A DNA stretch of 64,000 nt from an uncultured Ignavibacteria bacterium (GCA_964520555.1 CAZFNN010000001.1:393761-457760); one strand, 5' to 3'. Shown: positions 37,726 to 54,000, numbered from the stretch's first letter. The notes: a model not told the origin generated them from the letters alone. Program-made: numbers and translations.

Positions 37726-37727
37726 GC

Positions 37728-38762: not shown

Positions 38763-39662
38763 TCATTTTACAAGCAGTTCCACGATTTTTTGCGCGCGCG
38801 CCGCCGCCGTCCGTCCCTTCTGTACATCAACCTTGCCCGTCCCGAACTTCACTTCCTCGCAGAAGGCAAACAGTTCCTTCACCGTCCCGCGCAACTCACC
38901 GTCAAGCCCCCGCTCCTCCATCCAGCGTTGTACGTCCGCAAAGGTGTACCCGCTCAACTTTGCCTCATGCTTGTTCTCCAGAAGCGTGATCACAAACTTG
39001 CTCACCTGGCTGGAAAATTGGCGAAAATCCTCTCGATCGGCCAATTTCATGATCCCTGCGAACTCACCCTCAGCAGCGTCCCTCCAGTCAGACGTAACCT
39101 CCGGACTCTCCGATTTACATCGCCGCGAATAGACGAAACCTACCCCTGCGATCACCAAAACTACGCCGATCCCAATATATAGAAACAGAAGGCTACTCCC
39201 TCCACTTCTGGATAGCCGTGGCTGTGCTATAGTGACACTGATAGGCTCAGAATTGAGCGTATCCGTCCCCTCCTCTGTCGCGAATTCAACCTGAAAGGCT
39301 GGAATTGTCACTTCCCCACTTCTCGCAGGAATAAGTGTATACGTATAGCGCCGAAGCACTTGCTTGCCTTGCCGCTCAACACTGCTTCCCGATCCACCCA
39401 TCCGAAAACTCACCATCTCTGGCGGCGGCAACGGCTTGGTCTTGACTCCCGGACTATCAACACTCACCTCGAGCGTCAGCTCGATCACATCCTCGAACGC
39501 CAGCTGCACCTTGTCAACCCGCGCCTTGAATCCCATCTCCCCGGATGCGACTCCTGCCGTCAGAACCATCACTACAACTAAGGAGATTAGTGTTCTTCCC
39601 ATCATACTTGGTCTACTACACTTCAACCTGATACTGTTTCCCAACTTAACACTATTTAACAC
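38763..39662 (-). CDS. Small BatD/DUF4381-like membrane protein (third paralog in this array)
   Basis: Signal peptide, then a beta-domain of about 150 aa, one TM (LLFLYIGIGVVLVIAGVGFVY), and a cytoplasmic domain with …LFAFCEEVKFGTG… (compare the CDxxKFA/RFA motifs in the other two). The probable start is at the internal MMGRTLISLVVV. Confidence 0.45.
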   Translation of the reverse strand: MLNSVKLGNSIRLKCSRPSMMGRTLISLVVVMVLTAGVASGEMGFKARVDKVQLAFEDVIELTLEVSVDSPGVKTKPLPPPEMVSFRMGGSGSSVERQGKQVLRRYTYTLIPARSGEVTIPAFQVEFATEEGTDTLNSEPISVTIAQPRLSRSGGSSLLFLYIGIGVVLVIAGVGFVYSRRCKSESPEVTSDWRDAAEGEFAGIMKLADREDFRQFSSQVSKFVITLLENKHEAKLSGYTFADVQRWMEERGLDGELRGTVKELFAFCEEVKFGTGKVDVQKGRTAAARAQKIVELLVK

Positions 39663-40497
39663 CGGCCGCCGCTAATGCGACCAATGCCGGCACCATCAAC
39701 ACCTTCAGAACCACCGAAACTCGCCCTGCAAAAACAACTGGGTCTCGACGCAAATACAGGATAAATAATATCGCTAACGGCGCGTCCACGCCAACGATCA
39801 CAATCGCCAGATATGTTACCGACCGATTCAAAGCGCCATAGGCTGCAACACTCGTCAGTACCACCAGCAATCCGATCACAGATGCAATCAAACGCGCCCG
39901 GCCGGCTCCAAATTTGATCGGCACCGTCGTCCGGCCCAGGACCCGATCGCCGGCGACATCCTCAATATCCTTCACAATCTCCCGCATCAGATTAAACAAG
40001 AATGTCAGCGTGATCGCCGCCAGGACTGCCGACCAGTCAACCAAACCGGCGTTCTTCTGCCACGCCGGCAATAGGAAGACCGATGCACAGAGCGCGGCCA
40101 CAACGATGTTGCTCACCAACAATCGCGATGATAGAACCTTGGCATAAAGCATCAGTACCACCGCTACGGCAACATAATAGCTGAATAGTTTGGTGCCGCC
40201 GGCCAACGCTACTCCGAGCCCCACAACGAGCATCCCCTGCGCGATCATCCACGCTTCCTTCACCGTCACCGCCCCCGACGGCAATGCGCGTTGCGGCCGA
40301 TTCATGCGATCGGCCCCTTGGTCGAAGATATCATTGATCACGTACCCGAACGATACCAGGAAGAACACCGCGGCCGCTTCGAAGCGCGGCAACTCCAGCC
40401 GACCGTGCGCTACGGCCGCGGCGGCCACTAACGACAATGCAGCGACCAGACCGTTGAGTGGTCGGATGAGCTTGATTCCGGCAATAATCTTGTTCAC
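39652..40497 (-). CDS. UbiA-family prenyltransferase (polyprenyl or geranylgeranyl transferase)
   Basis: 281 aa, 8-9 TM segments. The first Asp-rich motif YVINDIFDQGADRMNRPQRALPSG (NDxxDxxxD) is diagnostic of the UbiA superfamily. Confidence 0.7.
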   Translation of the reverse strand: MNKIIAGIKLIRPLNGLVAALSLVAAAAVAHGRLELPRFEAAAVFFLVSFGYVINDIFDQGADRMNRPQRALPSGAVTVKEAWMIAQGMLVVGLGVALAGGTKLFSYYVAVAVVLMLYAKVLSSRLLVSNIVVAALCASVFLLPAWQKNAGLVDWSAVLAAITLTFLFNLMREIVKDIEDVAGDRVLGRTTVPIKFGAGRARLIASVIGLLVVLTSVAAYGALNRSVTYLAIVIVGVDAPLAILFILYLRRDPVVFAGRVSVVLKVLMVPALVALAAAGVK

Positions 40498-42104
40498 AAC
40501 GCTGTATCGAATCCGAAGTGAACCATTAGTTTATCAAATTGTTTTGATTCCCCCAACGTGAAATCGAGTCGGAACCACCCCAGCGATGTCCGCAGCGAAG
40601 TCCCCGCGCCGAATCCGGTGAGACGCAACTCATCCGAGGCCATCCGCAGCCAGCCGTTGTCGCAAAACACGCGCAGGATCGCGTCATCGCCCGCGAGATA
40701 CTGCAGTTCGGTCGCCCCAACCGCGCCTTCCCGCGCCAGGAACGCCTTCTCGCGATACCCCCGTAGCGTCGCCACGCCGCCAATCTCCAAAAACTGCTCG
40801 AGTGGAATCGGCGCGAAGTCGGACTTGACCTGAAACAACAAACCGTGTTGGTACAGCATGAACCCGCCGCCCACCGCCAGCCAGCCCGACCCGTCAATCA
40901 CCAGCCGCGTCGAATAACCGGTCCTTACGCCGTCGCCTTCTGCAAACGACTTGCGATACGCGGTTGCGAATTCGGTGCTGACGCGCACCGCACTCGCGCG
41001 CACGGCAGCCGGATCGCGGCCGTCATAGGCCGTCGTCAGGGCCGCCTCCACAATTCGCGCCGACGGCGCCGCCCGCCCCACATCCGGCGTGATCTTGTGC
41101 CAGCTCAAGCGGGCGCCGAGCAGCCAGTCGAGATCGAGATGATAGTCGATCAGAAGCGCCGCCCGCGTGCTCACGAAGTTCGAGTCGCGATCGACCTGCG
41201 CCGCGGCGATACCAACGTCAAACTCCGTTCCACCGACATACGGCAGCCCCGCCGTTAGCGCCAGCTCGCGCGACGCGGCATTGCGGCGCGACCACTTCCA
41301 GCCGACCCGCTCGCCATACCCCAGCACATTGAGGAGTTCCAGGTTAGCTTGCCCCGCCGGCTTGTTTTCCGGATCGAGCGTCAAAACACCTTCCAACGCG
41401 AAATTCCGCCGCTCCCGCACCGGAAAGGCGATATCAGCGTGATTTCCATGCAGATCATGCGCGACCTGCGGCTCGCCTGCGCTCGCTATGAAGTCAAGCT
41501 TGCCCAGCGCCCTAACATCCGCCCGGACATTGCGCTCGCGGTACGGCGTTTCTGACTCCAAATCGACGCGGCGCAGCAACGTGTTCGGGCGGCTCGCGAC
41601 TGCACCCGGAAAACTGATCTTGCCGACCGGCAGCCGCGGACCGGCTATCGCCGAAAACCGCAACTGCGCCCGTCCCTGCGCAATCGCAATCTCGACCAGT
41701 TGAATGCTGGCAAATGGATAGCCCGAATCCGCATACGCCGCGGCCGCCCGCAAGCCAATTCTCTCAATCAGCGCTGCCGATAGCGGCTGGTTCTTGCCGA
41801 ATCCGTCCAATCGCAGATATGCCGAATCGATTCCGTTGATGATCGCGTCGCTCAGACGATAGCGCCTGCCTTCGTCAATCACGACGACGCTATCCTCTGC
41901 GCCGCTCAACTCGACTTCTGCTTCGAAAAAGCCTGCCTCGGTGTAGTTCGCCGCAATTGCGCCCAGCAGTGCTTCTGCATTCGCCGCACGCGCCGCCAAT
42001 TCCCCGAGCGCCCGCGCATCCAAGTGGTGATTCCCCGTGAACCGCAGCCCGCTCGCGGTCGCGGTCAGCACCAGGACCAGTGAGATGGTTCCAAGCGTCC
42101 TCAT
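40494..42104 (-). CDS. POTRA-domain Omp85-superfamily outer-membrane protein (BamA/TamA/TpsB-like)
   Basis: After the signal peptide come POTRA-like repeats (…LRFTGNHHLDARALGELAA…, …ISFPGAVASRPNTLLRRVD…), then a C-terminal beta-barrel region of about 300 aa. I placed the start at ATG 42104, which overlaps the upstream gene's stop in an ATGA arrangement. The track ORF extends to 42170. Confidence 0.55.
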   Translation of the reverse strand: MRTLGTISLVLVLTATASGLRFTGNHHLDARALGELAARAANAEALLGAIAANYTEAGFFEAEVELSGAEDSVVVIDEGRRYRLSDAIINGIDSAYLRLDGFGKNQPLSAALIERIGLRAAAAYADSGYPFASIQLVEIAIAQGRAQLRFSAIAGPRLPVGKISFPGAVASRPNTLLRRVDLESETPYRERNVRADVRALGKLDFIASAGEPQVAHDLHGNHADIAFPVRERRNFALEGVLTLDPENKPAGQANLELLNVLGYGERVGWKWSRRNAASRELALTAGLPYVGGTEFDVGIAAAQVDRDSNFVSTRAALLIDYHLDLDWLLGARLSWHKITPDVGRAAPSARIVEAALTTAYDGRDPAAVRASAVRVSTEFATAYRKSFAEGDGVRTGYSTRLVIDGSGWLAVGGGFMLYQHGLLFQVKSDFAPIPLEQFLEIGGVATLRGYREKAFLAREGAVGATELQYLAGDDAILRVFCDNGWLRMASDELRLTGFGAGTSLRTSLGWFRLDFTLGESKQFDKLMVHFGFDTAL

Positions 42105-45100
42105 TCGAACCTCGACACCAGTTCGCTGCGCAGGAAGTACCGATTCGGCTCGCCCTCGCGCAGCTCGCAATTCCCCAACACCTTGAACACGAACGTCTCC
42201 GACAGCTTGATGTCAACCTTGATCCGCCCGCCGTAATGCATACCCGTTGGGAAACCCTCCGCCATCTGCAGCAAGACACGTCGATCTTCCTTTTCGCTCA
42301 CTTGCAGGCCGAAGATTGCCGCTTCGATCCTCCCTTTAGTCCCCAGGTTGCAGTTTAACCCGGGCGCGATGCGCCAGCTCACCGACTCCAGTTCCAGCGA
42401 GTCGGCGCGCTCCCGGGCCAACGCCACGTTGAGCACATACTCGAACCTGCCGGCGTAGCGGGTTCCGCCGAACTCGATGCGGCGTTCGCGCAGAAACAAA
42501 TTCAGTCGTCCGCTCTCGCGCCAGGTGCGGTTGCGCCCGATCATCGCGGCTGTGGCCACACCTTGCTCCGCGACGGCCTTGTTCAGTCCCGCCCTTAGCT
42601 CCTCGCTGTCGCGCCGCCCCGGGTGCGCCAGATCGAGCCGGTTCACGTCGCGATTGCGCGTATATGACACCTCCGTCCGCAAACCGATCCCGCGATCATA
42701 CCGCTGCAAGCGGTAGTTGTCGCTGCGCTGCGAGTACTTCTCGGCGTTGTCGAAGAACTGCTTCGGCGGCAGAAGCCATTCCCAGGCGAAATCGGCGTCC
42801 GCATCGCCGATCTCGCGATCATTGATCTCATAGCGCGCACTGACGCCGCTGGTCACGACGCTGCGGAAGAACTTGTCGAGCCTCACCTCCAGAGCCAATC
42901 GCTTCTCCGCGTCGACGCTGGGCGCCGTCGTTCCCACCGCTTCGGCCACCAGGATATAATCACCACGCGCCTGCGGAACGTAGACCGAGTCGATCAGGAC
43001 ATAATCGCCTTCCCCCGCATCAACCTTCAAATACGTCTGATTCGATTGCGACACGCCGCGGCGGTTCAGCCGGTAGTTGGCGGTCAGGTCAATCCCGCCC
43101 GCGACTCCCGGCGCCAGCACATCGACCATGCCGGTCTGATAATCCTGGCGTGCGGCCCCGCTGTGATAGCGATTGGCGCTGGCCGTGGCGTTGATCCGGC
43201 GCTGGCCTCCCAGTACGCGCGCCGCCTGCATCATGACGCTCTGCTTCGAATCGAGCAGGTGCCAGCGCCCCCTGTTCTCCCAGTTCTCGCGCAGTCGTCC
43301 CGTCAGCGTCACGCCGCCATACTCTCCGCCCGCTTCAATCTCGCGTTTGCTCAAGGTCATTGCCGCCGAGCCGTCGGTCTGACTCCGGCGCTGATCATAC
43401 TCACCGCGCGCCAACAGCATGACCGGCAACCTGACGGTGCGCACATCCGGCTTGATCCGAATCAGCTTGCGTTCGAGCCCATCTTCTTCCGCAGCCGCTG
43501 CGTCGATCGCCACATTCGTTGCCAGGTTCAGCCGTCCGCTGCTGCTGAAGCGCAGCCCGGCGCGCTCCGACCGAAACTCCGCGCCTTCCCGGGTGATCCC
43601 GCCGAGTAGTTCGCCGGTGAGAGTCGAATCCGGGCGCAGGGTCACCGTGGCGTCGTAGCGATTGCGATCGCGTTGACGGCTCGACGAGCGCTGCCACACG
43701 TAGTCGTCATCAACCTGATCCATCCGGCTGAAACGGTAGAACTGCGCCGGAAGATACTCACCTGCAACTTTCGCCGTCACGACCCGATTCCGCTGCCGAT
43801 ACTCCAACTGCCCGAATCCGGCCGCTTGCGCATTATCATGATCATCCCGCGCCGAAAACCGATTGCGATCATAGTTCGAATACGCCAACTCCCCCGTCAG
43901 CGACAAGGAGGAGTTCAGCGCAATCGAGCCCGCGCCTGCCACCACCTGCGCCGCCTCCGCCAGCGGCAGACGTCGAATCGGCGCATATTGTCCCAGCCCG
44001 GCACCAACAAACTGATATCGGCCGCTGCCCAGATACAAGTAGTCGCCTCCATCGGTCTCGCTGAATGTCACGCGATAATCACCGTTGCCCTCGCCGACAT
44101 ATTCGTAGCGGACAACGCCCACCGAGTCCGTCTCGACACGATAATCACCGGCACCCGCCCCAACTAAGACCGCGCCGGACACCACGGCGGCGGCGGGATC
44201 ATCGCCGGCCGCGGTCAGAGCGGCGATGTCGCCCTCGGTCAGATCAAAATCCAACGGATCGTTGCGAGCGCCAATGACACCGGCGTAGCCGAATGCCAGC
44301 ATGTTTGCACTGTCGCTGCCGGTCAACTGGGCGCCGCTGGTGAACATCGTCTTGCGATATTCGAGCCGCTGAAATTCCAATTCCACCCGCACCCGATCAC
44401 CGGTATCAAGCACTCGCCGTCCGGTGAAAAACAACTCGCCGCGCAGATAGTCGATGTAATAATCCTGGTCGCGCCCGCGCTGCAGCTTGACGCCGTTGAG
44501 CCACACGACGTCCGAGTTTTCCACGACGGCGATACCCGCGTTGCCGCTGCGGTCGCGCAATCGATACGGCCCGTAGTTGCCGTCCTCCGTCGTGAACTGG
44601 TTGTCGAGGAAATTCCCTTGCGGTACCGACACCGAGGCTTCAGTCTTGACACGCTGTTGGCGGTACTCCCATTCCAGACCCTGAACCCGGCGCTCCAACG
44701 TCAGAAACCGAAACCGGTCACGGCGCAGCGCAAAGCTGCCGAACACCGAGTGTAGCCGCGGCGATTCCATCTCCAGGAAGACATTCTCCAACTCCGAAAA
44801 TCGCCGCGTCACCAGCCGGTTATCGCGTAGGCCGCGGTCGGAAAAACTCCCGCGCACCAACACCCCCGGCGCGATCTCGCCCGTTACGCTCATGGTCAAT
44901 CCTTGTGAAAGATTCGAGTGCCCGCGATCGGAGACGTCGGCATAGAAGCTCTTGCTGCCCGATACCTTGAGTTTGCTCTGCGACCGCGGCGGCGCCCCCG
45001 TGTTCGGCGTCTGCGGCGTCGGCACCTGCGCTCGAGCACTGGTGGTGCCGTATTCACGCAAGGCAAACGTGCGTCCGATCAGGCTGTAGTCGCGGCCGAG

Positions 45101-45394
45101 TAAGGCCGTCACCGAATCGCACCCAACCCTACCCTTCAGCAAACACACACGATCTTCGTTTACCACATAATCAGTCCCGGCGCGCAACGTATCGCCGCAG
45201 GCAATGATTGACCGCAGCGTCTCGCCGGCGCCGACTGGCAGACAATCGCCGGCGCTGAGCGCGATTTTGCGCTCGCTGATTAATCCGGAACGGTCTTGAG
45301 CAATGAGGGAAAAAGCGCAGATGAAGATGAGGCTGATTACCGGCCCGATCCGCGCGGCTCGGCAATGATCACGGCAGGGCTGCCGCGATTTCAT
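42101..45394 (-). CDS. Large (1097 aa) beta-rich hypothetical outer-membrane-associated protein, translationally coupled to the Omp85-like gene
   Basis: Hydrophobic N-terminal signal/anchor (VISLIFICAFSLIAQ). It is dominated by alternating aromatic/charged beta-strand patterns (…YRV…YLYL…YQF…), with Gly/Asp-rich segments. I recognise no family. Confidence 0.45.
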   Translation of the reverse strand: MKSRQPCRDHCRAARIGPVISLIFICAFSLIAQDRSGLISERKIALSAGDCLPVGAGETLRSIIACGDTLRAGTDYVVNEDRVCLLKGRVGCDSVTALLGRDYSLIGRTFALREYGTTSARAQVPTPQTPNTGAPPRSQSKLKVSGSKSFYADVSDRGHSNLSQGLTMSVTGEIAPGVLVRGSFSDRGLRDNRLVTRRFSELENVFLEMESPRLHSVFGSFALRRDRFRFLTLERRVQGLEWEYRQQRVKTEASVSVPQGNFLDNQFTTEDGNYGPYRLRDRSGNAGIAVVENSDVVWLNGVKLQRGRDQDYYIDYLRGELFFTGRRVLDTGDRVRVELEFQRLEYRKTMFTSGAQLTGSDSANMLAFGYAGVIGARNDPLDFDLTEGDIAALTAAGDDPAAAVVSGAVLVGAGAGDYRVETDSVGVVRYEYVGEGNGDYRVTFSETDGGDYLYLGSGRYQFVGAGLGQYAPIRRLPLAEAAQVVAGAGSIALNSSLSLTGELAYSNYDRNRFSARDDHDNAQAAGFGQLEYRQRNRVVTAKVAGEYLPAQFYRFSRMDQVDDDYVWQRSSSRQRDRNRYDATVTLRPDSTLTGELLGGITREGAEFRSERAGLRFSSSGRLNLATNVAIDAAAAEEDGLERKLIRIKPDVRTVRLPVMLLARGEYDQRRSQTDGSAAMTLSKREIEAGGEYGGVTLTGRLRENWENRGRWHLLDSKQSVMMQAARVLGGQRRINATASANRYHSGAARQDYQTGMVDVLAPGVAGGIDLTANYRLNRRGVSQSNQTYLKVDAGEGDYVLIDSVYVPQARGDYILVAEAVGTTAPSVDAEKRLALEVRLDKFFRSVVTSGVSARYEINDREIGDADADFAWEWLLPPKQFFDNAEKYSQRSDNYRLQRYDRGIGLRTEVSYTRNRDVNRLDLAHPGRRDSEELRAGLNKAVAEQGVATAAMIGRNRTWRESGRLNLFLRERRIEFGGTRYAGRFEYVLNVALARERADSLELESVSWRIAPGLNCNLGTKGRIEAAIFGLQVSEKEDRRVLLQMAEGFPTGMHYGGRIKVDIKLSETFVFKVLGNCELREGEPNRYFLRSELVSRFE

Positions 45395-46310
45395 AAATCA
45401 CGATGCGATTGTTGCCGGTGTCGCATACGAAAATCTTCCCGTCGGCCCGCACTGCCAGTCCCGTCGGACTGGAGAAATTCAGCCCGCCGCTGCCGGCGCT
45501 GCCTGTCGCCGCGATCACGCTCCCGTCGCGCCCCAGCACCACCAGTTCGTTGCGCTCCTTGTCGGTGGCGATCAATTGCTCCGCCTGCGGCTCGAAGTCG
45601 CCCAACTCGCCGACCCCGGACAGCTCGATCTTGCCGTCCGGATTGCCGAAACCGTCGAAGATGTAAATCGTGTTGCGGTCGCGGTCGTAGACGTAAACGT
45701 CGCCCGCGGCCGCCAGTCGGATCAGCGCGCAGTGGGCAAACCCGCCCGCCGGAAACAACTCCTGTTGGCGCGCATAATCCTTGTCGAGGACAATCACCTT
45801 GAGATTGTCCGGATCAACCAGGTACATATTGCCGAACCGCGAGTACGCCAGCGCGGCGATCTTACCGAGCAGTTGCAGGTCGGGATTGTAATTGAAGCGC
45901 AATTCGTCCGAGAAGATCAGATTGTAGTCGGATCGCACGATGCGGCTGTTGCCCTGATCGAGGATGAAGAAATTGACCCCGCCGTCGGACGCCAGTGCCA
46001 CCGGATTGTTCAATCCGGTCAAGCCGAGTCCGTAACCGCCGTTTTCCTGAATGAACCCGTAGTCGGAACCGAGTTTGACGACGCGGTTATTGCCACGATC
46101 GAGGATGTACAAATTGTTGCTGATGTCGAAGACGATGGCGTTCGGAGCGGAAAATTCGCTGCTGCCGAAGCGGCCCTTGATCTCGCCAAGATAGTTCAAC
46201 CGCATCGCTGGCGGTGGCGCGATCGTCTCAACCGTCTGGCGCGCGGCGCAGGAACACAGCACGACGGCGACGGCCATCATCGTCCCCGCTGTCCACGCTG
46301 TGCGCCACAC
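45369..46310 (-). CDS. NHL-repeat beta-propeller lipoprotein
   Basis: Lipobox VVLCSCAA. Repeated NHL motifs (YILDRGNNRVVKL, FFILDQGNSRIVR, YLVDPDNLKVIVL, YVYDRDRNTIYIF, FVCDTGNNRIVIY). Confidence 0.7.
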   Translation of the reverse strand: MWRTAWTAGTMMAVAVVLCSCAARQTVETIAPPPAMRLNYLGEIKGRFGSSEFSAPNAIVFDISNNLYILDRGNNRVVKLGSDYGFIQENGGYGLGLTGLNNPVALASDGGVNFFILDQGNSRIVRSDYNLIFSDELRFNYNPDLQLLGKIAALAYSRFGNMYLVDPDNLKVIVLDKDYARQQELFPAGGFAHCALIRLAAAGDVYVYDRDRNTIYIFDGFGNPDGKIELSGVGELGDFEPQAEQLIATDKERNELVVLGRDGSVIAATGSAGSGGLNFSSPTGLAVRADGKIFVCDTGNNRIVIYEIAAALP

Positions 46311-46314: not shown

Positions 46315-47055
46315 TCAGAACCTCGCGCTTAAAGTCACCAACCAGCCGTCTGCCGTCGGCTGCAGTTCGATGCCCGAAAAGCCGGACTCAATCCCGCGAT
46401 TATGGCGGGTCGTGCTCCAGTAGGCATCCACCGCCGAAAGAAAGTGATTCGCGATCAGAAACCCAAGCGCAAAATCGGCGTTGCGGTAAAACGACTTGCT
46501 GTCATTCTTGAGGTCGCGGTACCGGCTGCGCGCGCTGTCCGAACTCCAACGCCAGAAATAAGCCTCGGTATCGGGATAATACTCGCGCTGCGGATCGAAG
46601 GCGCCGCCGACCTTGTTGTATTCCTCGCGTGAAGTGTAGAAACCGACCACGTCGAAAAAACGTTCGTCCTTGCCATCTACATCCGCGCCCGCCTCGCGCG
46701 CCGCCAGCAGCCGATAGTCGTCCTCGCGCCACTTGCCAAGATGCTTGAACGAGATCAGACTCGCCCAGCCGCCCAACTCGGCCGCCATAAAGATCCGCGA
46801 CTTGGTCGTCGAACCGACATACAACTCACCGGCCCCGGGCAGGACCAGCGACATCAAAAACGCCTGCCACGGCTTCTTGCGCATTTTGCCGGCATCCGGC
46901 TTGACTTCGCTGAATCCCTCGCCTTGCTCCACCTGGTATTGGATCGTCGGCTCGGGATCGATCGCTAACGGCGAGCGTTCCAGCGCGATCTGGGCTATTG
47001 CCGCCGGCGCCAACAATAGCGCCAACGCGAATATCAGAATCGTCGGCCGCATCAT
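46315..47055 (-). CDS. Small secreted/outer-membrane protein, paralog B (DUF5683-like PGAGxLY motif)
   Basis: 246 aa. Signal peptide, …FLMSLVLPGAGELYVGSTTKSRIFMAAELGGWA…, C-terminal …LVTLSARF. Clearly paralogous to the next gene upstream. Confidence 0.45.
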   Translation of the reverse strand: MMRPTILIFALALLLAPAAIAQIALERSPLAIDPEPTIQYQVEQGEGFSEVKPDAGKMRKKPWQAFLMSLVLPGAGELYVGSTTKSRIFMAAELGGWASLISFKHLGKWREDDYRLLAAREAGADVDGKDERFFDVVGFYTSREEYNKVGGAFDPQREYYPDTEAYFWRWSSDSARSRYRDLKNDSKSFYRNADFALGFLIANHFLSAVDAYWSTTRHNRGIESGFSGIELQPTADGWLVTLSARF

Positions 47056-47918
47056 CAGAACTTGTAGGTAAACACCAGTTTCGGAATCTGCTGCCCCTCG
47101 TAACGCGCCAGCCGCGCTTTCAGCGAAAACTCGCTGAAACTATCCTGCTGGCGATTGTAGCGCCGCGCCGACAAGGCCGCGTCGAATGCCGAGAGCAGAT
47201 GGTTGGCGATCGCGACGATCGCCCCCAGCTTGGCCCGGTCAAAATTCGTATTCGCTTTGTCGCGGTCGACCAGGTACTTGCCGCGAAACGTCGAAGTCGA
47301 GTCCTTGGTGCGGTAATCGGTGTCGACCCAGCCGTAGTTGAACTGGTCGTACTTGCCGATCATCTCGTAATATTGCTGCGTCTTGGTTTCGGGCAGATGG
47401 TGCGTGAATGTCGCCTCGTCGCGCACCGACTCCATCGTGTCCGAGGTGATCCCGTGCTCTTCGATCAGCCAGTTCGCGTAGCGCTCCGGGTCCCAGTAAC
47501 GGTCGGCATAACTCTTGTTGTCGTCTTCCTGATTGACACCCTTGCTGTGATAAACGTAGTAGCCGGTCCAGGCCAGCGCTTCGACCCCCATAAACATGAA
47601 CGCCTTGGTCCGCGAGCCGGTATAAAGCTGCCCGGCGCCGGGAATCGATAACGAATACAGGAAGCCCTTGCCCGGCGACTTGTAGTTCACGTCGAAGATG
47701 TCCGACGTCATCGGAAAGTCCTCGAAGCCCGATGCGGCAACGCCAAATGTGGTCAGCTGCTGCATGCGCTGATAGCTTTTCAGGTCACGTTCCGCCTGCG
47801 CCTGACTCAATGCACCGACCGTTAGCTTCGTCGGCGTTTCCGCCAGCGCCGCTACCGCCAGCAGTAGAATCAACGCGGCCGAGAAGTACTTCATCATCAG
47901 TCTATCCTCCAAATCCAC
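47055..47918 (-). CDS. Small secreted/outer-membrane protein, paralog A (DUF5683-like PGAGxLY motif)
   Basis: 287 aa. Signal peptide, …FLYSLSIPGAGQLYTGSRTKAFMFMGVEALAWTG…, C-terminal …LVFTYKF. It shares its stop/start nucleotide with paralog B. Confidence 0.45.
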   Translation of the reverse strand: MDLEDRLMMKYFSAALILLLAVAALAETPTKLTVGALSQAQAERDLKSYQRMQQLTTFGVAASGFEDFPMTSDIFDVNYKSPGKGFLYSLSIPGAGQLYTGSRTKAFMFMGVEALAWTGYYVYHSKGVNQEDDNKSYADRYWDPERYANWLIEEHGITSDTMESVRDEATFTHHLPETKTQQYYEMIGKYDQFNYGWVDTDYRTKDSTSTFRGKYLVDRDKANTNFDRAKLGAIVAIANHLLSAFDAALSARRYNRQQDSFSEFSLKARLARYEGQQIPKLVFTYKF

Positions 47919-47921: not shown

Positions 47922-50900
47922 TTATTTCACTATCGCTACCGAGCAGTGCTTGCGCTCGCCGCCGCTCGTTTCTAATTGGCAGAAGTATACTCCCGAAGCC
48001 AGCCGGGAGGTGTCCAGATCGAGTTCGTTGTCAACGCCGGCCGTGCCGGATATCGATGACTCCAACACCAGATCGCCGGCGGTGTTGTATAGCCGCAGCG
48101 ATACCGGCCCCGTCTCACGCAACGTAAACCGGATCGTTGTCGACTCGCGCGCTGGGTTCGGATAGTTGTACACGTAGCCGATCGCGTCGCTCGGATGCTG
48201 CACCGCCGGCAGGCTGCGAATATAGCTGCCGCCATTGGCCCCGCCGCCGTATAACGCGTTCCAGTCGGTGTCGCGTGGCCGCGCCAGCGTAAAGGCCGCA
48301 ATCTCGCCCTCGCGCGTCAACGCCATCACGGCGCCGCTATTCGCGTTCTTCGCAATCGCCAGGGGCAACTCAATATTGCCGCCCGCCGCCCGGGGGAAGT
48401 TCGTCAGACGATGCCCAACGTGGTCAAATCCGGCCACTTCCCCATTCTTGGTACCGACAAACAACTCCATCACCCCGTCGCCGTCCAAATCGACCAGCGC
48501 CGGCGCCGACCGCACCGGCCCGACCGGGTAGGCGCCATTGACGATCAGCGGGAAATTGTCCACCGCCGTTCCGTTCCAGTTGTAAGCATAGATCCGGTTG
48601 TCGCCCCCGAACACGATGTCGACATAGCCGTCATTGTCGATGTCCCCCAGCGCGATCTCGGAAAACACCGACCCGCCAACCTCCACGGTAAACGGTTGAC
48701 CGGCGTAATTGATGCGCAACGTCCCATTCAAGTAAACTTCGACGGTCTCGAACGTGCCGTTGCGGTCGAAGTCCGCCGCTGCTGCGCCGCGCAAGTCGGC
48801 CGCGTTGGCGCCGGCGCGCATCCCGCCCACCGGCGACACCAGCTCAAACCGGTGCAGCGAGTCAGTCATCACCCGGAACGGCCAGACCGCTTCTTCATTC
48901 GTCAGAATCAGCCCGTCCCCGGCTAACACGATCCGTCGGTTGGTCATCGTATAGACCAGAATTTCCTTGCCCGCATTGTTCGGATCGACGTCGGCGATGA
49001 TCGGCGCGATTGCCAGCGGCTCGTCGATAAAGGTCTCAAACCGCTTGACCGCTTCGCCGCTGTACGTCAACGTTCGCGAGTTGAACGCGGCGACCGTAAA
49101 CCGGCTGGTGCCGGAGATGACTTCGGCAAAACCGTCACCGTCCAAATCGCCGATCGCCAGCGGCATGACGAACTCGCGATCGGACGCCACCCGCCCGAAC
49201 ACGCCCAGCGTATCCTGCGCCATCCGGGCGCCGTCGTACGTCTGCCGGTCGACAACCACCTCCGTGCCGGGAATCGGCTGGAACAGCGATCCGCCGCTCA
49301 ACCGGTACGCCAGAATGTAGTTGTCGACACTGGTTAGAATCTCTTCTTCACCATCATTGTTCAGGTCATATACGCGCAGTGCCGATGCCCCGCGCCCGAT
49401 AAAATTCGGCCAGTTCGCCGCCTTGCCCTCAGTACGGATATCGCAGTTCATCGTCGCCACCGCCGCCGAAATATCGCCGATGGTGATCCCCGTGTACGCG
49501 CCGCTCGCCGCCGCCGAATTCGGATTCGTGAACGGCCCCAGCTCGCGGTTGTTGTTGATGTCGAAATAATCCTTGGCGCTGCCGTAGCCGGCAAAATACT
49601 CGCGCCCGAATTGCACCAGCCCATCCGCCTCCATCAGCGTTAAGAACTGATGCCGATTGTCCCACTGCCGCGGATCGGACCGGAAGTTGAACCATTGCAG
49701 ATCGTTGTCATCGAAATTGTTGAATCCGTCACCGTCGTAGTCCAGCCGCGCCACCAATTCATCGACCCGCCAGATCACCATCCCGGTTCCCGGCGTCAGA
49801 TAATCGTACTCCCGCGTGTTCGGCCCGTTCTTCTCGCGCACCGGCCGCAGAAACACGCCGGTGTTCTCATCCTGCTGGATGCCGGTCAATCCGTCGCCGT
49901 CCAAGTCCGTGCGGCGATACTCGATCAGAAAGTACTCGTCGGCATTGATCGGCACGCGAATGATCTGTTGCTCGTCCGTCAGCTTCTCCGCCGGCGCAAT
50001 CTGCACGTTGGCGCCGCTGCTGACCGTCACCACGTCGACGAATCCCAGATACGCGCGCGACCAGGCATCGGGAAATATCGGCATCACCCCCTGCACCAGC
50101 ACCAGCACCTCTTCGCCGAAATCGATATTGACCCCGAATCCGTTGTTGTCCATCAGCGAGAAATCACCCACTGCCGTATTGAATGTTCGCGAGTCGTAAA
50201 GATCGACCAAACCCAGTTGGTGCCCGAACTCGTGCGCCATTACCGCATTCAACGCCGTCACCCGGCCGTCCTGGCACACTGTTTCCGGCATCACCATCCC
50301 GTCCACGATCACCGCCGAGTCGTTCTGCACGAAAATCGGCGCTCCCAACTTGAGATAACCGGTAAACAGATCCCCCGGCGTCGGCTGCCCGAAGTTCGGA
50401 AGGTTGTTCTGCTGATCCGAGCCCGGATGAAACACCACGAAGGCGTCATACAACGGCGCGCCGGTCACCGCATCAGTGAAGCGCAACTCCAGATCGCGAT
50501 CCGCCGCCGCAAAAGCATCGGCGTAGAATTCCGTCAATCCGAACTCCGGCGGCTGCAGCCCGTAATACGCCATCGTCGAATCTAAATCGTACGCCGCCTC
50601 TTCTTCCCGCGGATAGATGTCGAACGTCAGCGTCAGCCGGCCGTTCGAAACCACCTCGTAATATTCCTTCAGCGCCTGCAGGTGCGCGAGAAAATACGCG
50701 TTGTTGTGCGGCGCCGGATCGATCGTGTGCCCTTCCTGCGCCGCAAAATCTTCGCGCGTCCGCAGGTCAAAGGTGCCGTTGCCGGTAGTACGCGAATCGT
50801 CCGGCACTTCCTTGCGAAACTGCGCTTTGATCGCCAGAATCCGAATCACCCGCTGCTCGGTCGCCGCCAGCGCCTGGCGCGGCAACGCATATTTGCTCTC

Positions 50901-51062
50901 GCGCTCCAGACCGAGCAAGTTGCGCTCGGAGGCCCCGTGACTCATCCCGCCGCGTGGCGCAATTTCCGCCGGCTTCTTGCCCTTGATCGGCAGGTAATTC
51001 GCCCTGGCGCCACTCAGCGCCGTCGCTACTATCAGGAAAGTGTACAGCAGTATCCGCGTCAT
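47922..51062 (-). CDS. M6-family (immune inhibitor A-like) zinc metalloprotease with FG-GAP/VCBS-like repeats and T9SS C-terminal sorting domain
   Basis: HEFGHQLGLVDLYD zinc-binding motif. Repeated DxDxDG Ca-binding beta-propeller loops (DLDGDGFAEV, DIDNDGYVDIV, DLDGDGVMELFVG). The C-terminus …YVYNYPNPARESTTIRFTL…VSLRLYNTAGDLV…GVYFCQLETSGGERKHCSVAIVK is a T9SS CTD. Signal peptide present. Confidence 0.7.
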   Translation of the reverse strand: MTRILLYTFLIVATALSGARANYLPIKGKKPAEIAPRGGMSHGASERNLLGLERESKYALPRQALAATEQRVIRILAIKAQFRKEVPDDSRTTGNGTFDLRTREDFAAQEGHTIDPAPHNNAYFLAHLQALKEYYEVVSNGRLTLTFDIYPREEEAAYDLDSTMAYYGLQPPEFGLTEFYADAFAAADRDLELRFTDAVTGAPLYDAFVVFHPGSDQQNNLPNFGQPTPGDLFTGYLKLGAPIFVQNDSAVIVDGMVMPETVCQDGRVTALNAVMAHEFGHQLGLVDLYDSRTFNTAVGDFSLMDNNGFGVNIDFGEEVLVLVQGVMPIFPDAWSRAYLGFVDVVTVSSGANVQIAPAEKLTDEQQIIRVPINADEYFLIEYRRTDLDGDGLTGIQQDENTGVFLRPVREKNGPNTREYDYLTPGTGMVIWRVDELVARLDYDGDGFNNFDDNDLQWFNFRSDPRQWDNRHQFLTLMEADGLVQFGREYFAGYGSAKDYFDINNNRELGPFTNPNSAAASGAYTGITIGDISAAVATMNCDIRTEGKAANWPNFIGRGASALRVYDLNNDGEEEILTSVDNYILAYRLSGGSLFQPIPGTEVVVDRQTYDGARMAQDTLGVFGRVASDREFVMPLAIGDLDGDGFAEVISGTSRFTVAAFNSRTLTYSGEAVKRFETFIDEPLAIAPIIADVDPNNAGKEILVYTMTNRRIVLAGDGLILTNEEAVWPFRVMTDSLHRFELVSPVGGMRAGANAADLRGAAAADFDRNGTFETVEVYLNGTLRINYAGQPFTVEVGGSVFSEIALGDIDNDGYVDIVFGGDNRIYAYNWNGTAVDNFPLIVNGAYPVGPVRSAPALVDLDGDGVMELFVGTKNGEVAGFDHVGHRLTNFPRAAGGNIELPLAIAKNANSGAVMALTREGEIAAFTLARPRDTDWNALYGGGANGGSYIRSLPAVQHPSDAIGYVYNYPNPARESTTIRFTLRETGPVSLRLYNTAGDLVLESSISGTAGVDNELDLDTSRLASGVYFCQLETSGGERKHCSVAIVK

Positions 51063-51075: not shown

Positions 51076-54000
51076 TTATAGTTTTACCGTCAGTGAGGTG
51101 CGCAGCGTGTTGGCTAGCGGCAGATTCTCGGAGGACGGAATATACGCAAAGTCCAGCCGGTACCGGCCCTTGTACTGCAATCCGACGCCGACCGTCGGCG
51201 TCTTCACTTCACCTTCCTGGTCATAGATGTATCCCGCCCGCAGCGCCAGCAGCGAACCGTACCAGTACTCGATACCGACATTCTCGATCGCTTCCTTGAA
51301 TTCCGTCGAAAAATCGTCATTCACTGTCGCCAGCAGCTTGTTGATCTCGCCGACCACCGTCAAACGGTTGTAGGGCGAATCGAGCAGCTTGTACGAAAAG
51401 CCGACCGCCAGGTTGCGCGGCAGCGCGTCCGACTGCGCTGCGTCGATGTAGCTCATGTTCGGACCCAGGTTGGTCAGCACCGCGCCGAAGCGCAGCTTCT
51501 TGGTGGCCGCGTACAGCAACCCACCTTCCACGGCAAACGAGGTGCCCGATCCCTCGCCGACTTCGCGGCCGGCACCTTGCACCGACAACCGGCTGTAGAT
51601 GATCTTCGCCGACAAGCCGACCGCCAGCGACTTCGAGGCGCGCGTGCCGTACGACAGCGTCACCGCCACGTCGAACGGATTGATCTCGCCCGTGATCTCG
51701 GATGAGGTCTCGCCCGTCACCGGGATCGTACCGTACGAGAGGAACGTCACGTTGCCGCCGATCGTGCCGAGTGTGCCGATCGGTTGCACGTAGCTGAGAA
51801 ATTCGTAATACAGGTCGTTCGCCAATTCCGGCAGCCAGTTGGCGTGCGTAAACGTCAACTCGGTCTTGCCCTGCGCGAATACCACCACGCGATCAGCCGT
51901 GGCAAACCACATCTCGCCGCTCTGGCCGACAATGTCGCGCGTGTTGCTCTGGTGCAGATCTTCGTGATAGTAGCGCTCCCATTGCCCGTCGTCGTGCGTG
52001 AAGGTGCCGTAGATCGAACCGACGTAGAGCTTCCCGCCCTGCGAGTAGAGCGCATTGATCGTGCTGCCGGCGGGATTCGCGTAGACATAAACCACGCGGC
52101 CGATCTGCAGGTTGCCGGTCTGCAGCGTGTTCTTCTGCTTGAGAATCTGCACGAAGCTGCTGATCTTGTCCTGGTCGGTCGTCTTCAGGTACTCCTGCGC
52201 CAGCTCCTCGATCGTCATCGGCCGCTCGACCTTGATCGCTTTGTAGCCGAAACTCGTCCAGGCCTTGCCGTCAAACTTCTTCAATCCCAACTCGGTGCCG
52301 ACCCACAAGTCGTTGCCGTGCATCTCCAGCGCCGTGATCTGGCCTTCAAAAACCGGCTTGTACGGCAGCCGCAGCGCAACTCCCGCCTTCGGCGTATTGA
52401 AAAACTCCGGATTCCCCGCCTGGATCTGCGCAATCTGCAGCTCCAGCCGCACGGCGTCGATCGTTCCGTAGAACTTCGTTAGCACCGTCAGCGCCGAGTC
52501 GTTGACGGACGTCGTATAGTTCACCTGATTCGACCAGGTCGTCCCGTCCCAACCGAACAGATCATCCTCGCTGGCCGCCCACGCCAGTCGGTCGCTCTTC
52601 ACAAAAATGTTCTTGATCGGTCCGGCGGTCAGCCCTTCAGCCGCTCCATATACCGTCCACTTACCGTCGCGCAGGACGCGCACGCCGGTATCGGTGCCAA
52701 CCCAGATCTGCCCGCGCCTGAACACCTCGATGCACCACACCGCCGTCGAGTCGCCGCCGGTCGAGTACTTCTCCCAACTGCGCCCGTTGTAACGGTACAG
52801 CCCGGTGGTGGTGCCGACGTACAACATCTTGTGGTCGACGCCGATGTCGAGAATCTCCCCCTCAAACACCGCGTTGAACGGAAACTGCAGATCATTGGGC
52901 AGCCGATCGCGATACGATTTCTCCAGCGCAAACATCAGGCGGTCAGCTTCCGCCTCGCTGACGGTCGAATCGGCCAACGCCTTGTTGGCCGTCTCGACGA
53001 ACGCCGCCATCCGCAAATCATCGAGACGGCAGCCGGTCCAGTTCTCTTCGAGCTTGCCCAAACTCTTGACAAATTCTTCGCGGCTGTCGAATTGCTCCGG
53101 CAGTCCGGCCTCGATCCGCGTCCGCAGCTCCACCAGCCGTTCCAGCGGGAAGCGGTTGTTCGTCCGCGCCACCTGATCGAGACGCGGCAGCACCACTTCG
53201 TCCTTCGCCGTCCCCAGCGCCCGCGCCACGATATCTTTCAAATTGTCACCCCGCCGCGGCTGAATGATATCGCCCGTGATCCAGGTCGCGCCGTTGTACC
53301 GCATCAACCCGCGGTTGGTCAACGCCCAGACGTCATAATGCGTGTAATTGTCGTTGGGAACGCCGTTCTCCATCACGGCAATCTTTTGAATCCGCTGCTC
53401 CCAGGGCACATTCCACCCGCGCCAGACGCTCAGCAGCACCGCATACGGAACCTGAATTTCGCCCGGCCGCGTTTGCGTCTCGCATGCCGTCGCGAGCGAC
53501 TCAATCTCGGTCAGTTCCTCGTCCGCCAACTGCACGTCGGCAGCCACGTCGGCGGCGCGCTGCTTCAAGGTGTTGAACGCTTCAATATTCAGCCGCAAAT
53601 CCTGCCAGTACATCAGCAGATTTTCCGCCAGCGCGTTGATGCGATCGACGCTCGTCTTGCCGCCGATCTTCAGCAGACTGGTGCGGATGCCGTTGATCTC
53701 GTCAAACGATACACCGGTATTGGCGAAACAGATCTTGCGCACCGCCTGCTTGAAGCGTTCCTTGTCGGCGGAGGCCAGCCGCCGCGATAACGTCGCCAGC
53801 AGCGTGCGGTTCGGATCGATGCTGATTGTCTCGTACTCGGACCATTCCTCGCCGTCGAGACGGCTGATCGCGTTCCCCTTCACCTGCCACGCCTGGATCT
53901 TCTCGTAAAACTCCGGCGCCAACTTGCCGTCAAACGCCTGCTGCGCCAGTTCCTTCAGCCGCGAATCGTCGCCCAGACTAAACTGGTACCAGGCATGCGC

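What the first reader, a model, noticed from the sequence alone, without database searches (positions are those of the whole stretch)
40494..45394. Translationally coupled pair: unknown 1097-aa beta-rich protein + POTRA/Omp85 transporter
The 1097-aa ORF's TGA and the Omp85-like gene's ATG overlap as ATGA (42101-42104), implying stoichiometric co-expression. The arrangement of a large beta-rich exoprotein or barrel followed by an Omp85-family protein is reminiscent of two-partner secretion (TpsA/TpsB) or TamA/TamB, but in reversed order. The large protein lacks recognisable TPS or AsmA-like features. It is a candidate for a new substrate/transporter or barrel-assembly pair.
Basis: inference. 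Interest (0 to 1): 0.6.

Follow-up and report, generated by a model that had tools for sequence, protein, structure and literature searches.

The report
Giant outer-membrane barrel with dedicated Omp85
A 1097-residue protein of unknown family is predicted to form one of the largest outer-membrane beta-barrels known; in at least five bacterial phyla its gene sits between a small propeller protein and a short BamA-like Omp85, and in this genome the trio lies next to surface-protein sorting (type IX secretion) genes.

Summary
Two minus-strand genes, 42101-45394 (1097 aa) and 40494-42104 (536 aa), share an ATGA stop/start overlap.

- **The large protein.** It is not a TpsA, TamB, LptD or TonB-dependent receptor. 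AlphaFold2 (pLDDT 84.9) predicts a signal peptide, a small N-terminal beta domain, a disordered linker and about 38 long antiparallel strands. The chain ends in an OMP-type C-terminal Phe. I read this as one giant barrel.
- **Its family.** It has about 5,800 clusters at 50% identity across the FCB superphylum, is always 'hypothetical', and has no Pfam or NCBIfam model.
- **The partner.** It is an Omp85 with POTRA domains and the L6 'LRGY' motif. Orthologues show 3 POTRA plus a PF01103 barrel, closest to BamA.
- **Synteny.** The Omp85 gene follows the barrel gene in 29 of 32 evaluable loci from Zixibacteria, Eisenbacteria, KSB1, Calditrichota, Fidelibacterota and unnamed MAGs. It does so in 0 of 41 loci from Bacteroidota, Rhodothermota, Ignavibacteriota and Kryptoniota.
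An NHL propeller gene lies immediately upstream. In Zixibacteria and Eisenbacteria so do PorU, PorV, an M6 protease with a T9SS tail, and two DUF5683-like genes.

Most likely this is an outer-membrane pore module with its own assembly Omp85. Function is inferred, not shown.

The parts
42101..45394 (-). BIG: a 1097-aa predicted giant outer-membrane beta-barrel. Signal peptide about aa 1-33; small beta domain 38-101; disordered P/T-rich linker 105-134; about 38 long strands 141-1096. Two soluble inserts: aa 269-345 (most conserved, 'GPY...RG..DYxIDY..FT') and aa 381-480. Phe1096 is nearly invariant.
   Evidence: ORF; translation; AF2 pLDDT 84.9, pTM 0.73; conserved columns; Foldseek hits are all OM barrels; no Pfam, NCBIfam or PDB sequence match
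42101..42104 (-). ATGA stop/start overlap between BIG and the Omp85 gene. A GAGG Shine-Dalgarno-like motif lies inside the BIG 3' end.
40494..42104 (-). 536-aa Omp85-superfamily protein. It has a signal peptide, POTRA domains (best match aa 160-232), a C-terminal barrel and the L6 'LRGY' motif at aa 447-450. It is a short BamA-like paralogue.
   Evidence: Pfam POTRA 3.7e-9 and ShlB 1.6e-4; TIGR03303 BamA 3e-13, below cutoff; orthologues match PF01103 up to 1e-25 with up to 3 POTRA stretches; alignments; next-best relatives are 865-1015-aa BamA proteins
45369..46310 (-). Six-bladed NHL beta-propeller, about 302-313 aa. It has a lipoprotein-type signal (VLCSC) in Zixibacteria. Its 3' end overlaps the BIG start by 26 nt. 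It is the most widely conserved neighbour of BIG.
   Evidence: Pfam NHL 4.9e-14; PDB 'Pizza' NHL propellers 8.7e-42; lipobox survey; adjacency statistics
46315..47055 (-). D2: a 246-aa DUF5683-like protein with a signal peptide, a 'PGAGELY' motif and two hydrophobic segments.
   Evidence: Pfam DUF5683 1.8e-6; sequence; conserved with the cluster
47055..47918 (-). D1: a 287-aa paralogue of D2 (DUF5683-like).
47922..51062 (-). 1046-aa M6-like metalloprotease with an intact HEFGH at aa 277, FG-GAP propeller repeats and a T9SS type-A C-terminal sorting domain.
   Evidence: Pfam; NCBIfam NF052323 305 bits (cutoff 600) and TIGR04183; HEXXH check
51076..54243 (-). 1055-aa PorV-family outer-membrane protein carrying an insertion of about 700 aa.
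   Evidence: Pfam PorV 4.6e-24; NCBIfam PorV_fam 250 bits against cutoff 90, with matches at aa 34-78 and 788-1054
54248..58108 (-). PorU, the T9SS C-terminal signal peptidase/sortase (1286 aa).
   Evidence: Pfam Peptidase_C25 2e-83; NCBIfam NF033707 710 bits against cutoff 420
39652..40497 (-). UbiA-family prenyltransferase (DGGGPS-like). Its start overlaps the Omp85 stop by 4 nt. It follows the Omp85 gene in several lineages.

Best explanation
The 1097-aa gene encodes a very large outer-membrane beta-barrel of about 38 strands, in the size class of the 36-strand T9SS translocon SprA but with almost no cap. It belongs to a large, undescribed FCB-superphylum family.

The barrel works with the periplasmic (in Zixibacteria lipid-anchored) NHL propeller encoded just upstream. 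I infer that the propeller is a plug or adaptor, as LptE is for LptD or Plug is for SprA. The downstream gene is a short, 3-POTRA BamA paralogue. I infer that it is a dedicated insertase or assembly partner for this unusually large barrel, and possibly for the other OM proteins of the cluster.

In Zixibacteria and Eisenbacteria the trio is the distal part of one gene string with PorU, PorV and a CTD-bearing M6 protease. The pore module therefore probably serves the T9SS-type surface-protein sorting pathway there.

Shown: gene structure, family membership or its absence, predicted fold, synteny. Inferred: single-barrel topology, plug role of NHL, insertase role of Omp85, T9SS link.
For: **Fold.** AF2 gives pLDDT 84.9 and pTM 0.73, with about 38-40 strands of 8-26 residues from aa 141 to the C-terminus. 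A near-invariant C-terminal Phe fits an OMP beta-signal. All Foldseek PDB hits are OM barrels at probability 1.0, but none fits well. The best query-normalised TM is 0.25 for SprA. Target-normalised TM is at most about 0.31 for 22-strand barrels, so the model is not a standard-size barrel.

**Family.** There are 5,841 representative clusters at E<=1e-3, all about 1,100-1,200 aa. None has a Pfam or NCBIfam assignment, and every name that a source gives is 'hypothetical'.

**Omp85.** The window protein has a POTRA domain and the LRGY motif. Orthologues match PF01103 up to 1e-25 and carry up to 3 POTRA stretches. The next-nearest relatives are full-length BamA proteins.

**Synteny.**
- Omp85 directly after BIG: Zixibacteria 11/11, Eisenbacteria 5/5, KSB1 2/2, Calditrichota 1/1, Fidelibacterota 1/1, unnamed MAGs 9/12.
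- NHL directly before BIG: additionally 7/8 Rhodothermota and 5/30 Bacteroidota.
- PorU and PorV upstream: 9/9 Zixibacteria, 3/3 Eisenbacteria, and locus L055.
- The junction is overlapping or at most 19 nt everywhere.

**T9SS neighbours.** PorU and PorV pass the NCBIfam cutoffs.
Against: - No experiment exists and no complex model could be built.
- The Omp85 AF2 model failed (pLDDT 40.6), so its architecture rests on HMM matches to orthologues.
- I could not inspect coordinates. One barrel versus two, the exact strand count, and which side the inserts face are therefore not verified.
- In Bacteroidota, Rhodothermota, Ignavibacteriota and Kryptoniota the barrel gene has no adjacent Omp85 (0/41). 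A dedicated insertase is therefore not a general requirement of the family.
- In Bacteroidota the gene sits among housekeeping genes (tpiA, gatB, sucC), with no T9SS neighbours.
- In KSB1, Calditrichota and Fidelibacterota the trio is not next to PorU/PorV, so the T9SS link could be lineage-specific gene order.
- A catalyst does not need 1:1 translational coupling.
Confidence: 0.5

Rival explanations
1. The Omp85 is not a transient assembly catalyst. It is a permanent subunit of a hetero-oligomeric outer-membrane machine (NHL, giant barrel and Omp85). Its POTRA domains receive a periplasmic client that is then passed through or beside the giant barrel.
For: The ATGA or near-zero spacing conserved across phyla fits 1:1 production. 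The fixed NHL-BIG-Omp85 order holds in 29/32 loci. Omp85 proteins are known both as insertases and as translocators (established knowledge of BamA, TamA, TpsB and Toc75).
Against: Many lineages keep NHL and BIG, or BIG alone, without an adjacent Omp85. No interaction data exist. No client is identified.
Confidence: 0.2
2. The giant barrel is the outer-membrane translocon of a reduced T9SS in phyla such as Zixibacteria and Eisenbacteria. It would be a functional analogue, or very distant relative, of SprA/Sov. PorV would dock to it and NHL would act as plug.
For: It is co-linear with PorU, PorV and a CTD-bearing protease in 13 loci of three lineages. Its size class matches SprA, which gives the best query-normalised TM among PDB hits (0.25). 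A 55-aa insert shared with the SprA model TIGR04189 was found in 12 of 40 family members, best E 8.9e-10.
Against: The SprA similarity is confined to one small insert. The whole protein scores 16.8 bits against a cutoff of 200, and there is no PDB sequence match to SprA. The family is also present in Flavobacterium, Myroides and Flammeovirga. Those genera are known from the literature to have canonical SprA, so it is not simply the SprA orthologue. Whether Zixibacteria lack SprA could not be checked.
Confidence: 0.12
3. This is a two-partner secretion or TamA/TamB-type pair. The Omp85 would export or hand over the large protein as a passenger, or the large protein would be a TamB-like periplasm-spanning partner.
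For: There are weak ShlB and POTRA_2 matches in the Omp85 (ShlB; POTRA_2). A gene pair of large protein plus Omp85 is the classic TPS/TAM layout.
Against: There are no TPS (PF05860), DUF490 or AsmA matches. AF2 shows long antiparallel barrel strands ending in a beta-signal, not a beta-helix or a groove. Omp85 orthologues match PF01103 far better than ShlB and carry 3 POTRA domains. The NCBIfam TamA model scores 16 bits against a cutoff of 625.
Confidence: 0.03
4. The adjacency has no functional meaning. The Omp85 is a general housekeeping BamA/TamA-type protein that happens to lie downstream of an unrelated porin-like gene.
For: In half of the surveyed phyla the barrel gene stands alone. Downstream genes (UbiA, the Bat operon) are apparently unrelated yet also tightly packed.
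Against: The order and near-zero spacing are conserved at 21-26% protein identity across at least five phyla, while the flanking genes differ. At 500-600 aa with at most 3 POTRA domains it is not the canonical 5-POTRA BamA.
Confidence: 0.08

Closest known systems
SprA/Sov, the 36-strand T9SS translocon (PDB 6H3I, 8GL6)
   Same: A giant single-chain outer-membrane barrel restricted to the FCB superphylum. It works with PorV and a plug protein. It gives the best query-normalised TM among PDB hits (0.25), and it shares a 55-aa insert motif with part of the family. PorU and PorV are encoded in the same gene string here.
   Different: SprA has about 2,300-2,500 aa, with more than 150 kDa of extracellular cap. 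This protein has 1,097 aa and almost no cap. It fails the TIGR04189 cutoff (16.8 against 200 bits) and has no detectable sequence match to the solved SprA chain. It co-exists with SprA-bearing genera, so it is a separate family.
BamA / TamA (Omp85 insertases)
   Same: The partner has POTRA domains, an Omp85 barrel and the L6 (V/L)RGY motif. Its orthologues have 3 POTRA domains and about 500-600 aa, like TamA. Its nearest relatives outside the subfamily are BamA proteins. TamA is known to help assemble 'difficult' OMPs.
   Different: It fails the equivalog cutoffs for BamA (49 against 297 bits) and TamA (16 against 625 bits). It has no TamB partner and is not next to skp/lpxD. It is coupled to one specific giant barrel gene.
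LptD/LptE
   Same: A large barrel whose lumen is occupied by a separately encoded lipoprotein, and which depends on Omp85 machinery for assembly. This is the model for the proposed NHL-in-barrel arrangement. The NHL is a lipoprotein in Zixibacteria.
   Different: There are no OstA/LptD Pfam matches. TM is 0.12-0.14. The barrel has about 38 rather than 26 strands. NHL is a propeller unrelated to LptE, and the interaction itself is untested.
TpsA/TpsB two-partner secretion
   Same: The gene pair of a large protein plus an Omp85 with POTRA domains, and weak ShlB-type matches.
   Different: The large protein has no TPS domain and no beta-helix; it is a barrel. The Omp85 is closer to BamA than to FhaC/ShlB.
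38- and 40-strand barrel superfamily predicted by Solan et al. 2021 (PMC8346858)
   Same: That paper predicted, from sequence and contact maps, single barrels larger than SprA and assigned them no function. The strand count fits this protein.
   Different: The paper's family lists are in supplements that are not held, so identity with this family could not be checked. That work reports no Omp85, NHL or T9SS gene context in the text I could read.

Membership tests
Omp85 superfamily (partner protein) | At least one POTRA domain N-terminal to the barrel | tested here: met
   PF07244 at 3.7e-9, 37.6 bits against cutoff 21.3. Up to 3 POTRA stretches in orthologues.
Omp85 superfamily (partner protein) | 16-strand Omp85/Bac_surface_Ag barrel (PF01103) with the L6 (V/I/L)RG(Y/F) motif | tested here: met
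   LRGY at aa 447-450, in an invariant block. PF01103 passes its cutoff in 8 of 10 orthologues tested. In the window protein itself only ShlB appears, at 21.7 bits, just under its 22.7 cutoff. The strand count could not be checked because AF2 failed.
BamA (equivalog) | Five POTRA domains, about 800 aa, and passing TIGR03303 | tested here: not met
   536 aa; 49 bits against cutoff 297; room for at most 3 POTRA domains.
TamA/TamB translocation and assembly module | TamA equivalog score and an adjacent TamB (DUF490/AsmA-like) gene | tested here: not met
   NF047950 scores 16 bits against cutoff 625. No DUF490/AsmA match in the 1097-aa protein or its family. The neighbours are NHL and UbiA.
Two-partner secretion (TpsA/TpsB) | An N-terminal TPS domain and a beta-helical passenger in the large protein | tested here: not met
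   No PF05860 or other haemagglutinin-type match. The AF2 model consists of long antiparallel strands up to the C-terminal Phe.
Two-partner secretion (TpsA/TpsB) | A TpsB-type transporter: two POTRA domains, a ShlB barrel and an N-terminal plug helix | tested here: inconclusive
   The ShlB and POTRA_2 matches are weak or below cutoff. PF01103 and three POTRA stretches fit better in orthologues. No usable structure model was obtained.
SprA/Sov T9SS translocon | Passing TIGR04189; about 2,300-2,500 aa with a large extracellular cap | tested here: not met
   16.8 bits against cutoff 200, matching only aa 287-344. Length is 1,097 aa. No sequence match to solved SprA.
SprA/Sov T9SS translocon | A single barrel of about 36 strands with a lateral opening bound by PorV or Plug | tested here: inconclusive
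LptD | An N-terminal OstA beta-jellyroll plus the LptD C-terminal barrel family | tested here: not met
   No Pfam or NCBIfam match. Foldseek TM is 0.12-0.14.
TonB-dependent receptor | A plug domain plus a 22-strand TonB_dep_Rec barrel | tested here: not met
   No Pfam match. BtuB and Cir are the top Foldseek hits by E-value, but target-normalised TM is only about 0.30.
T9SS sorting cluster (context) | PorU sortase and PorV-family shuttle encoded together with CTD-bearing cargo | tested here: met
   PorU NF033707 scores 710 bits against cutoff 420. PorV_fam scores 250 bits against cutoff 90. TIGR04183 CTD is present in the M6 protease. The same order appears in 13 loci. Core T9SS genes (GldKLMN, SprA) lie outside the window and were not tested.

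The most novel reading that the evidence does not exclude
The NHL propeller, the ~38-strand barrel and the short BamA paralogue would together form a previously unrecognised outer-membrane translocon module of the FCB superphylum. The barrel would be a minimal, cap-less counterpart of SprA. In Zixibacteria, Eisenbacteria and relatives it would carry CTD-tagged proteins to PorV and PorU. The propeller would gate it, and its own Omp85 would insert or power it. In Bacteroidota the barrel would survive as a second, uncharacterised giant pore.
Probability: 0.13. Interest if true: 0.85.

Novelty: new variant of a known kind. Interest (0 to 1): 0.6.

Why it matters
Barrels of this size are very rare. 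SprA, with 36 strands, is the only one solved, and how cells fold and seal such pores is an open question in outer-membrane biogenesis.

This case has three features that make it useful:
- **A large unnamed family.** It has thousands of clusters, and its members occur in cultivable Flavobacterium, Myroides, Flammeovirga and Salinibacter.
- **A candidate plug.** The NHL propeller is the barrel's most widely conserved neighbour.
- **A co-encoded BamA paralogue.** It is present in several uncultured phyla.

Together these give a natural 'substrate plus dedicated Omp85' system. They also give a handle on what T9SS-like sorting looks like outside Bacteroidota. Because cultivable homologues exist, the question is directly testable.

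Tried and rejected
- **Family and sequence searches on the 1097-aa protein.** Pfam and NCBIfam on the protein and on 40 family members gave only noise or a 55-aa SprA/phage-tail-like insert.
- **PDB sequence searches.** I searched with the whole-family profile, the insert profile and one insert sequence. SprA was not hit, so I could not obtain an SprA sequence for a profile-profile test.
- **AF2 of the Omp85.** The 7-sequence alignment gave an unusable model, pLDDT 40.6.
- **BamG/BamH idea.** I considered the Bacteroidota BAM accessory subunits BamG and BamH as a match for the big protein. This was rejected on reading the paper: BamG is a 14-strand FadL-type barrel and BamH a lipoprotein.
- **Conserved neighbours in Bacteroidota.** The genes upstream are tpiA, gatB, sucC and aspartokinase, so there is no conserved partner there.
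- **Promoter and terminator scan of the cluster.** Counts were no higher than in shuffled sequence.
- **Literature.** No paper links Zixibacteria to T9SS, none says anything relevant about DUF5683 (its one occurrence is in an unrelated nematode paper), and none describes this family. The supplements of Solan et al. 2021 are not held.
- **Cluster names.** Look-up gave no names or accessions.


Full report
**1. Observation**

The window is read almost entirely on the minus strand. GC skew is negative throughout and GC content is about 0.60. ORF 42101-45394(-) encodes 1097 aa, and ORF 40494-42104(-) encodes 536 aa from its ATG.

The plus-strand bases 42101-42104 are TCAT, which reads ATGA on the coding strand. 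The TGA of the first gene therefore overlaps the ATG of the second. A GAGG lies 5 nt upstream of that ATG. A public contig with the identical protein carries independent gene calls with the same boundaries.

The overlap is conserved. It is ATGA in 10 of 11 other Zixibacteria-type loci (45-56% identity) and a 1-nt overlap in the other. In more distant phyla the spacing is -26 to +19 nt. This proves an operon junction that allows coupling. It does not prove fixed stoichiometry.

**2. The large protein**

*No described family.* Pfam gives only a sub-threshold CBM_X2 hit. NCBIfam gives only 16.8 bits to the SprA model, against a cutoff of 200, over aa 287-344. There is no TPS, DUF490/AsmA, OstA/LptD, or TonB plug or barrel match. 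Scanning 40 family members one by one did not change this.

*A large family.* The word-indexed search found 73 relatives.
- Zixibacteria relatives are 40-84% identical over the full length.
- Relatives from KSB1, Flavobacteriales and Flammeovirga are 22-34% identical over 30-88% of the query.
- None has a Pfam domain, and every name that a source gives is 'hypothetical protein'.

A profile search of 1.84 billion representatives found 5,841 clusters at E<=1e-3 and 2,915 at E<=1e-30. The 150 best were all 1,076-1,231 aa.

*Predicted structure.* AlphaFold2 with a 65-sequence alignment gave mean pLDDT 84.9 and pTM 0.73. The predicted layout is:

| Residues | Feature |
|---|---|
| about 1-33 | signal peptide |
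| 38-101 | small beta domain |
| 105-134 | disordered Pro/Thr-rich linker |
| 141-1096 | about 38-40 antiparallel strands of 8-26 residues |
| 269-345 | soluble insert, the most conserved part of the family (GPY...RG..DYxIDY..FT) |
| 381-480 | second soluble insert |

Phe1096 is nearly invariant, as expected for an OMP beta-signal.

*Structure comparison.* Foldseek against the PDB returns only outer-membrane barrels at probability 1.0, and none fits well:
- BtuB and Cir have target-normalised TM of about 0.30.
- LptD has TM 0.12-0.14.
- SprA has the best query-normalised TM, 0.25.

*Relation to SprA.* The SprA-model similarity is real but tiny. 12 of 40 members hit TIGR04189, best E 8.9e-10, always on the same ~55-aa insert. 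That insert also resembles a phage distal-tail beta-sandwich. Three PDB sequence searches did not reach the solved SprA chain.

**3. The partner**

The window protein has a POTRA domain (3.7e-9), a ShlB match just under its cutoff, and a below-cutoff BamA match covering model positions 200-467. The L6 motif LRGY (aa 447-450) sits in an invariant block.

Orthologues that follow the barrel gene in other phyla are clearer. PF01103 reaches 1e-25, up to three POTRA stretches are found, and lengths are 502-603 aa. In a profile search the next-best proteins after this subfamily are 865-1015-aa BamA proteins (E about 1e-50), and then proteobacterial TamA-type proteins (E about 1e-18).

It is therefore a short, 3-POTRA BamA paralogue. 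It is TamA-like in size but is not TamA (16 bits against a cutoff of 625), and it is not a TpsB. The AF2 model from only seven sequences was unusable (pLDDT 40.6).

**4. Context**

The pair is the end of a tight gene string on the minus strand:

| Coordinates | Gene |
|---|---|
| 54248-58108 | PorU sortase (NF033707, 710 bits against cutoff 420) |
| 51076-54243 | PorV-family protein with an insertion of about 700 aa |
| 47922-51062 | M6-like protease with intact HEFGH, FG-GAP repeats and a T9SS type-A CTD |
| 47055-47918 and 46315-47055 | two DUF5683-like paralogues |
| 45369-46310 | six-bladed NHL propeller (PDB 'Pizza' 8.7e-42), overlapping the barrel start by 26 nt |
| 42101-45394 | the barrel |
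| 40494-42104 | the Omp85 |
| 39652-40497 | UbiA-type prenyltransferase, overlapping the Omp85 stop by 4 nt |
| downstream | a Bat/MoxR operon |

**5. Synteny elsewhere**

Gene calls with Pfam annotation showed NHL-barrel-Omp85 in KSB1 and in a JGI contig. The full M6-x-x-NHL-barrel-Omp85 order appeared on an ENA contig. The complete PorU-to-Bat order appeared in a second Zixibacteria-like genome. Flammeovirga and a Flavobacteriales MAG had the barrel alone.

A scan of one genome per GTDB species returned 80 loci. I called ORFs in them and labelled these with jackhmmer profiles seeded from the window proteins. Counts are over evaluable loci.

| Group | Omp85 directly after barrel | NHL directly before barrel | PorU+PorV upstream |
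|---|---|---|---|
| Zixibacteria-type | 11/11 | 11/11 | 9/9 |
| Eisenbacteria-type | 5/5 | 5/5 | 3/3 |
| KSB1 | 2/2 | 2/2 | 0/1 |
| Calditrichota | 1/1 | 1/1 | 0/1 |
| Fidelibacterota | 1/1 | 1/1 | 0/1 |
| Unnamed MAGs | 9/12 | 13/14 | 1/10 (L055) |
| Bacteroidota | 0/27 | 5/30 | 0/22 |
| Rhodothermota | 0/8 | 7/8 | 0/6 |
| Ignavibacteriota | 0/3 | 0/4 | 0/2 |
| Kryptoniota | 0/3 | 0/2 | 0/1 |

UbiA follows the Omp85 in Zixibacteria, Calditrichota and four other lineages. NHL carries a lipobox in Zixibacteria and an ordinary signal peptide elsewhere.

The core conserved unit is therefore NHL plus barrel. The Omp85 joins it in a phyletically clean set of non-Bacteroidota phyla. The T9SS sorting genes join it in a subset of those.

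**6. Mechanism**

*Shown.* A secreted, beta-signal-bearing, barrel-type protein of exceptional size. A periplasmic or lipid-anchored propeller and a BamA paralogue encoded in fixed order with near-zero spacing. A T9SS sorting context in two named phyla.

*Inferred, favoured reading (about 0.5).*
- The barrel is a pore that must be sealed, and the propeller is its plug or adaptor. The analogy is LptE in LptD and Plug on SprA (SprA mechanism as summarised in PMC10994853).
- The Omp85 is a dedicated insertase or assembly partner for a barrel that general BAM handles poorly.
- Lineages without the adjacent Omp85 may rely on their elaborated BAM. The Bacteroidota BAM has extra subunits that have been proposed to help build complex OMPs such as SprA (PMC12611786).

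*Rivals.*
- A stable three-part transport machine (0.2).
- A cap-less SprA analogue acting as the T9SS pore in these phyla (0.12).
- A meaningless adjacency (0.08).
This is contradicted by fold, domains and Omp85 type.

**7. Comparison with what is known, and novelty**

No membership in BamA, TamA/TamB, TpsA/TpsB, SprA, LptD or the TonB-dependent receptors is supported (see the table of tests). The Omp85 is a new subfamily of a known superfamily.

The barrel family is undescribed in the libraries searched. Solan et al. 2021 (PMC8346858) predicted a superfamily of 38- and 40-strand barrels without function. It may be the same family, but I could not check this because the supplements are not held.

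I found no paper on the NHL-barrel-Omp85 module or on T9SS genes in Zixibacteria. I rate it a new variant of known kinds, with interest 0.6. It would surprise specialists moderately, and it is testable because cultivable Bacteroidota and Rhodothermota carry the barrel.

Noticed in passing
window 51076-54243 (-): The PorV-family protein is 1055 aa instead of about 330-390. The PorV model matches aa 34-78 and 788-1054, so about 700 aa are inserted after the first strand. The long form is present in all Zixibacteria-type loci (1045-1055 aa), while Eisenbacteria keep a normal ~330-aa PorV in the same position.
   Followed up: partly
window 47922-51062 (-): This is an M6-like metalloprotease with FG-GAP propeller repeats and a T9SS type-A CTD. 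It resembles NCBIfam's 'T9SS-dependent M6-like inactivated metalloprotease' (305 bits against cutoff 600) but keeps an intact HEFGH. Its position after PorU and PorV recalls PorZ, a propeller protein with a CTD.
   Followed up: partly
window 46315-47055 and 47055-47918 (-): Two adjacent DUF5683-like paralogues. Each has a signal peptide, a shared 'S(L)xxPGAGxLYxGS' motif and two hydrophobic segments, and each ends in Phe. They always travel with the M6 protease and NHL in Zixibacteria, Eisenbacteria, L055 and L007. No relevant literature on DUF5683 was found.
   Followed up: partly
window 39652-40497 (-); also L008-L019, L022, L024, L043, L058, L060, L089: A UbiA-family prenyltransferase whose best match is archaeal-type geranylgeranylglycerol-phosphate geranylgeranyltransferase (150 bits, below cutoff). 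It follows the Omp85 gene in several lineages, with a 4-nt overlap here. Whether it belongs to the module or reflects FCB ether-lipid genes is unknown.
   Followed up: partly
window 29691-39662 (-): A complete Bat/MoxR 'aerotolerance'-type operon runs directly on from the cluster: BatD-like, MoxR AAA, DUF58, a 488-aa PMT_2-like protein, BatD, two BatA/VWA, TPR, and a large BatD. The same order is found in all Zixibacteria-type loci.
   Followed up: no
window 10962-16580 (-): A 1872-aa ORF whose only Pfam match is a C-terminal FlgD_ig domain. PorU here carries the same kind of C-terminal domain. It is probably another T9SS-type cargo.
   Followed up: no
L016 9920-13238; L019 10001-13305: The barrel gene is split into 2 and 4 ORFs in two long-read MAGs (isolate names starting MFD), while all neighbours are intact. 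This is either frameshift-type assembly error or pseudogenisation.
   Followed up: no
L009-L013, L017, L018 (record titles): Contigs whose whole PorU-to-Bat order and 46-56% barrel identity match the Zixibacteria-named relatives are titled 'uncultured Ignavibacteria bacterium'. Likewise, some 'Cytophagia' and 'Bacteroidota' labelled MAGs carry the non-Bacteroidota NHL-barrel-Omp85 layout. The taxonomic labels of these MAGs look unreliable.
   Followed up: no
L034, L041, L086: In one Ignavibacteria MAG and two Bacteroidetes MAGs, an M6FG-like gene lies 2-4 kb upstream of the barrel on the same strand, with 2-3 unassigned genes between. This may be a diverged remnant of the M6-D1-D2-barrel order, or only a shared CTD or FG-GAP match.
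   Followed up: partly
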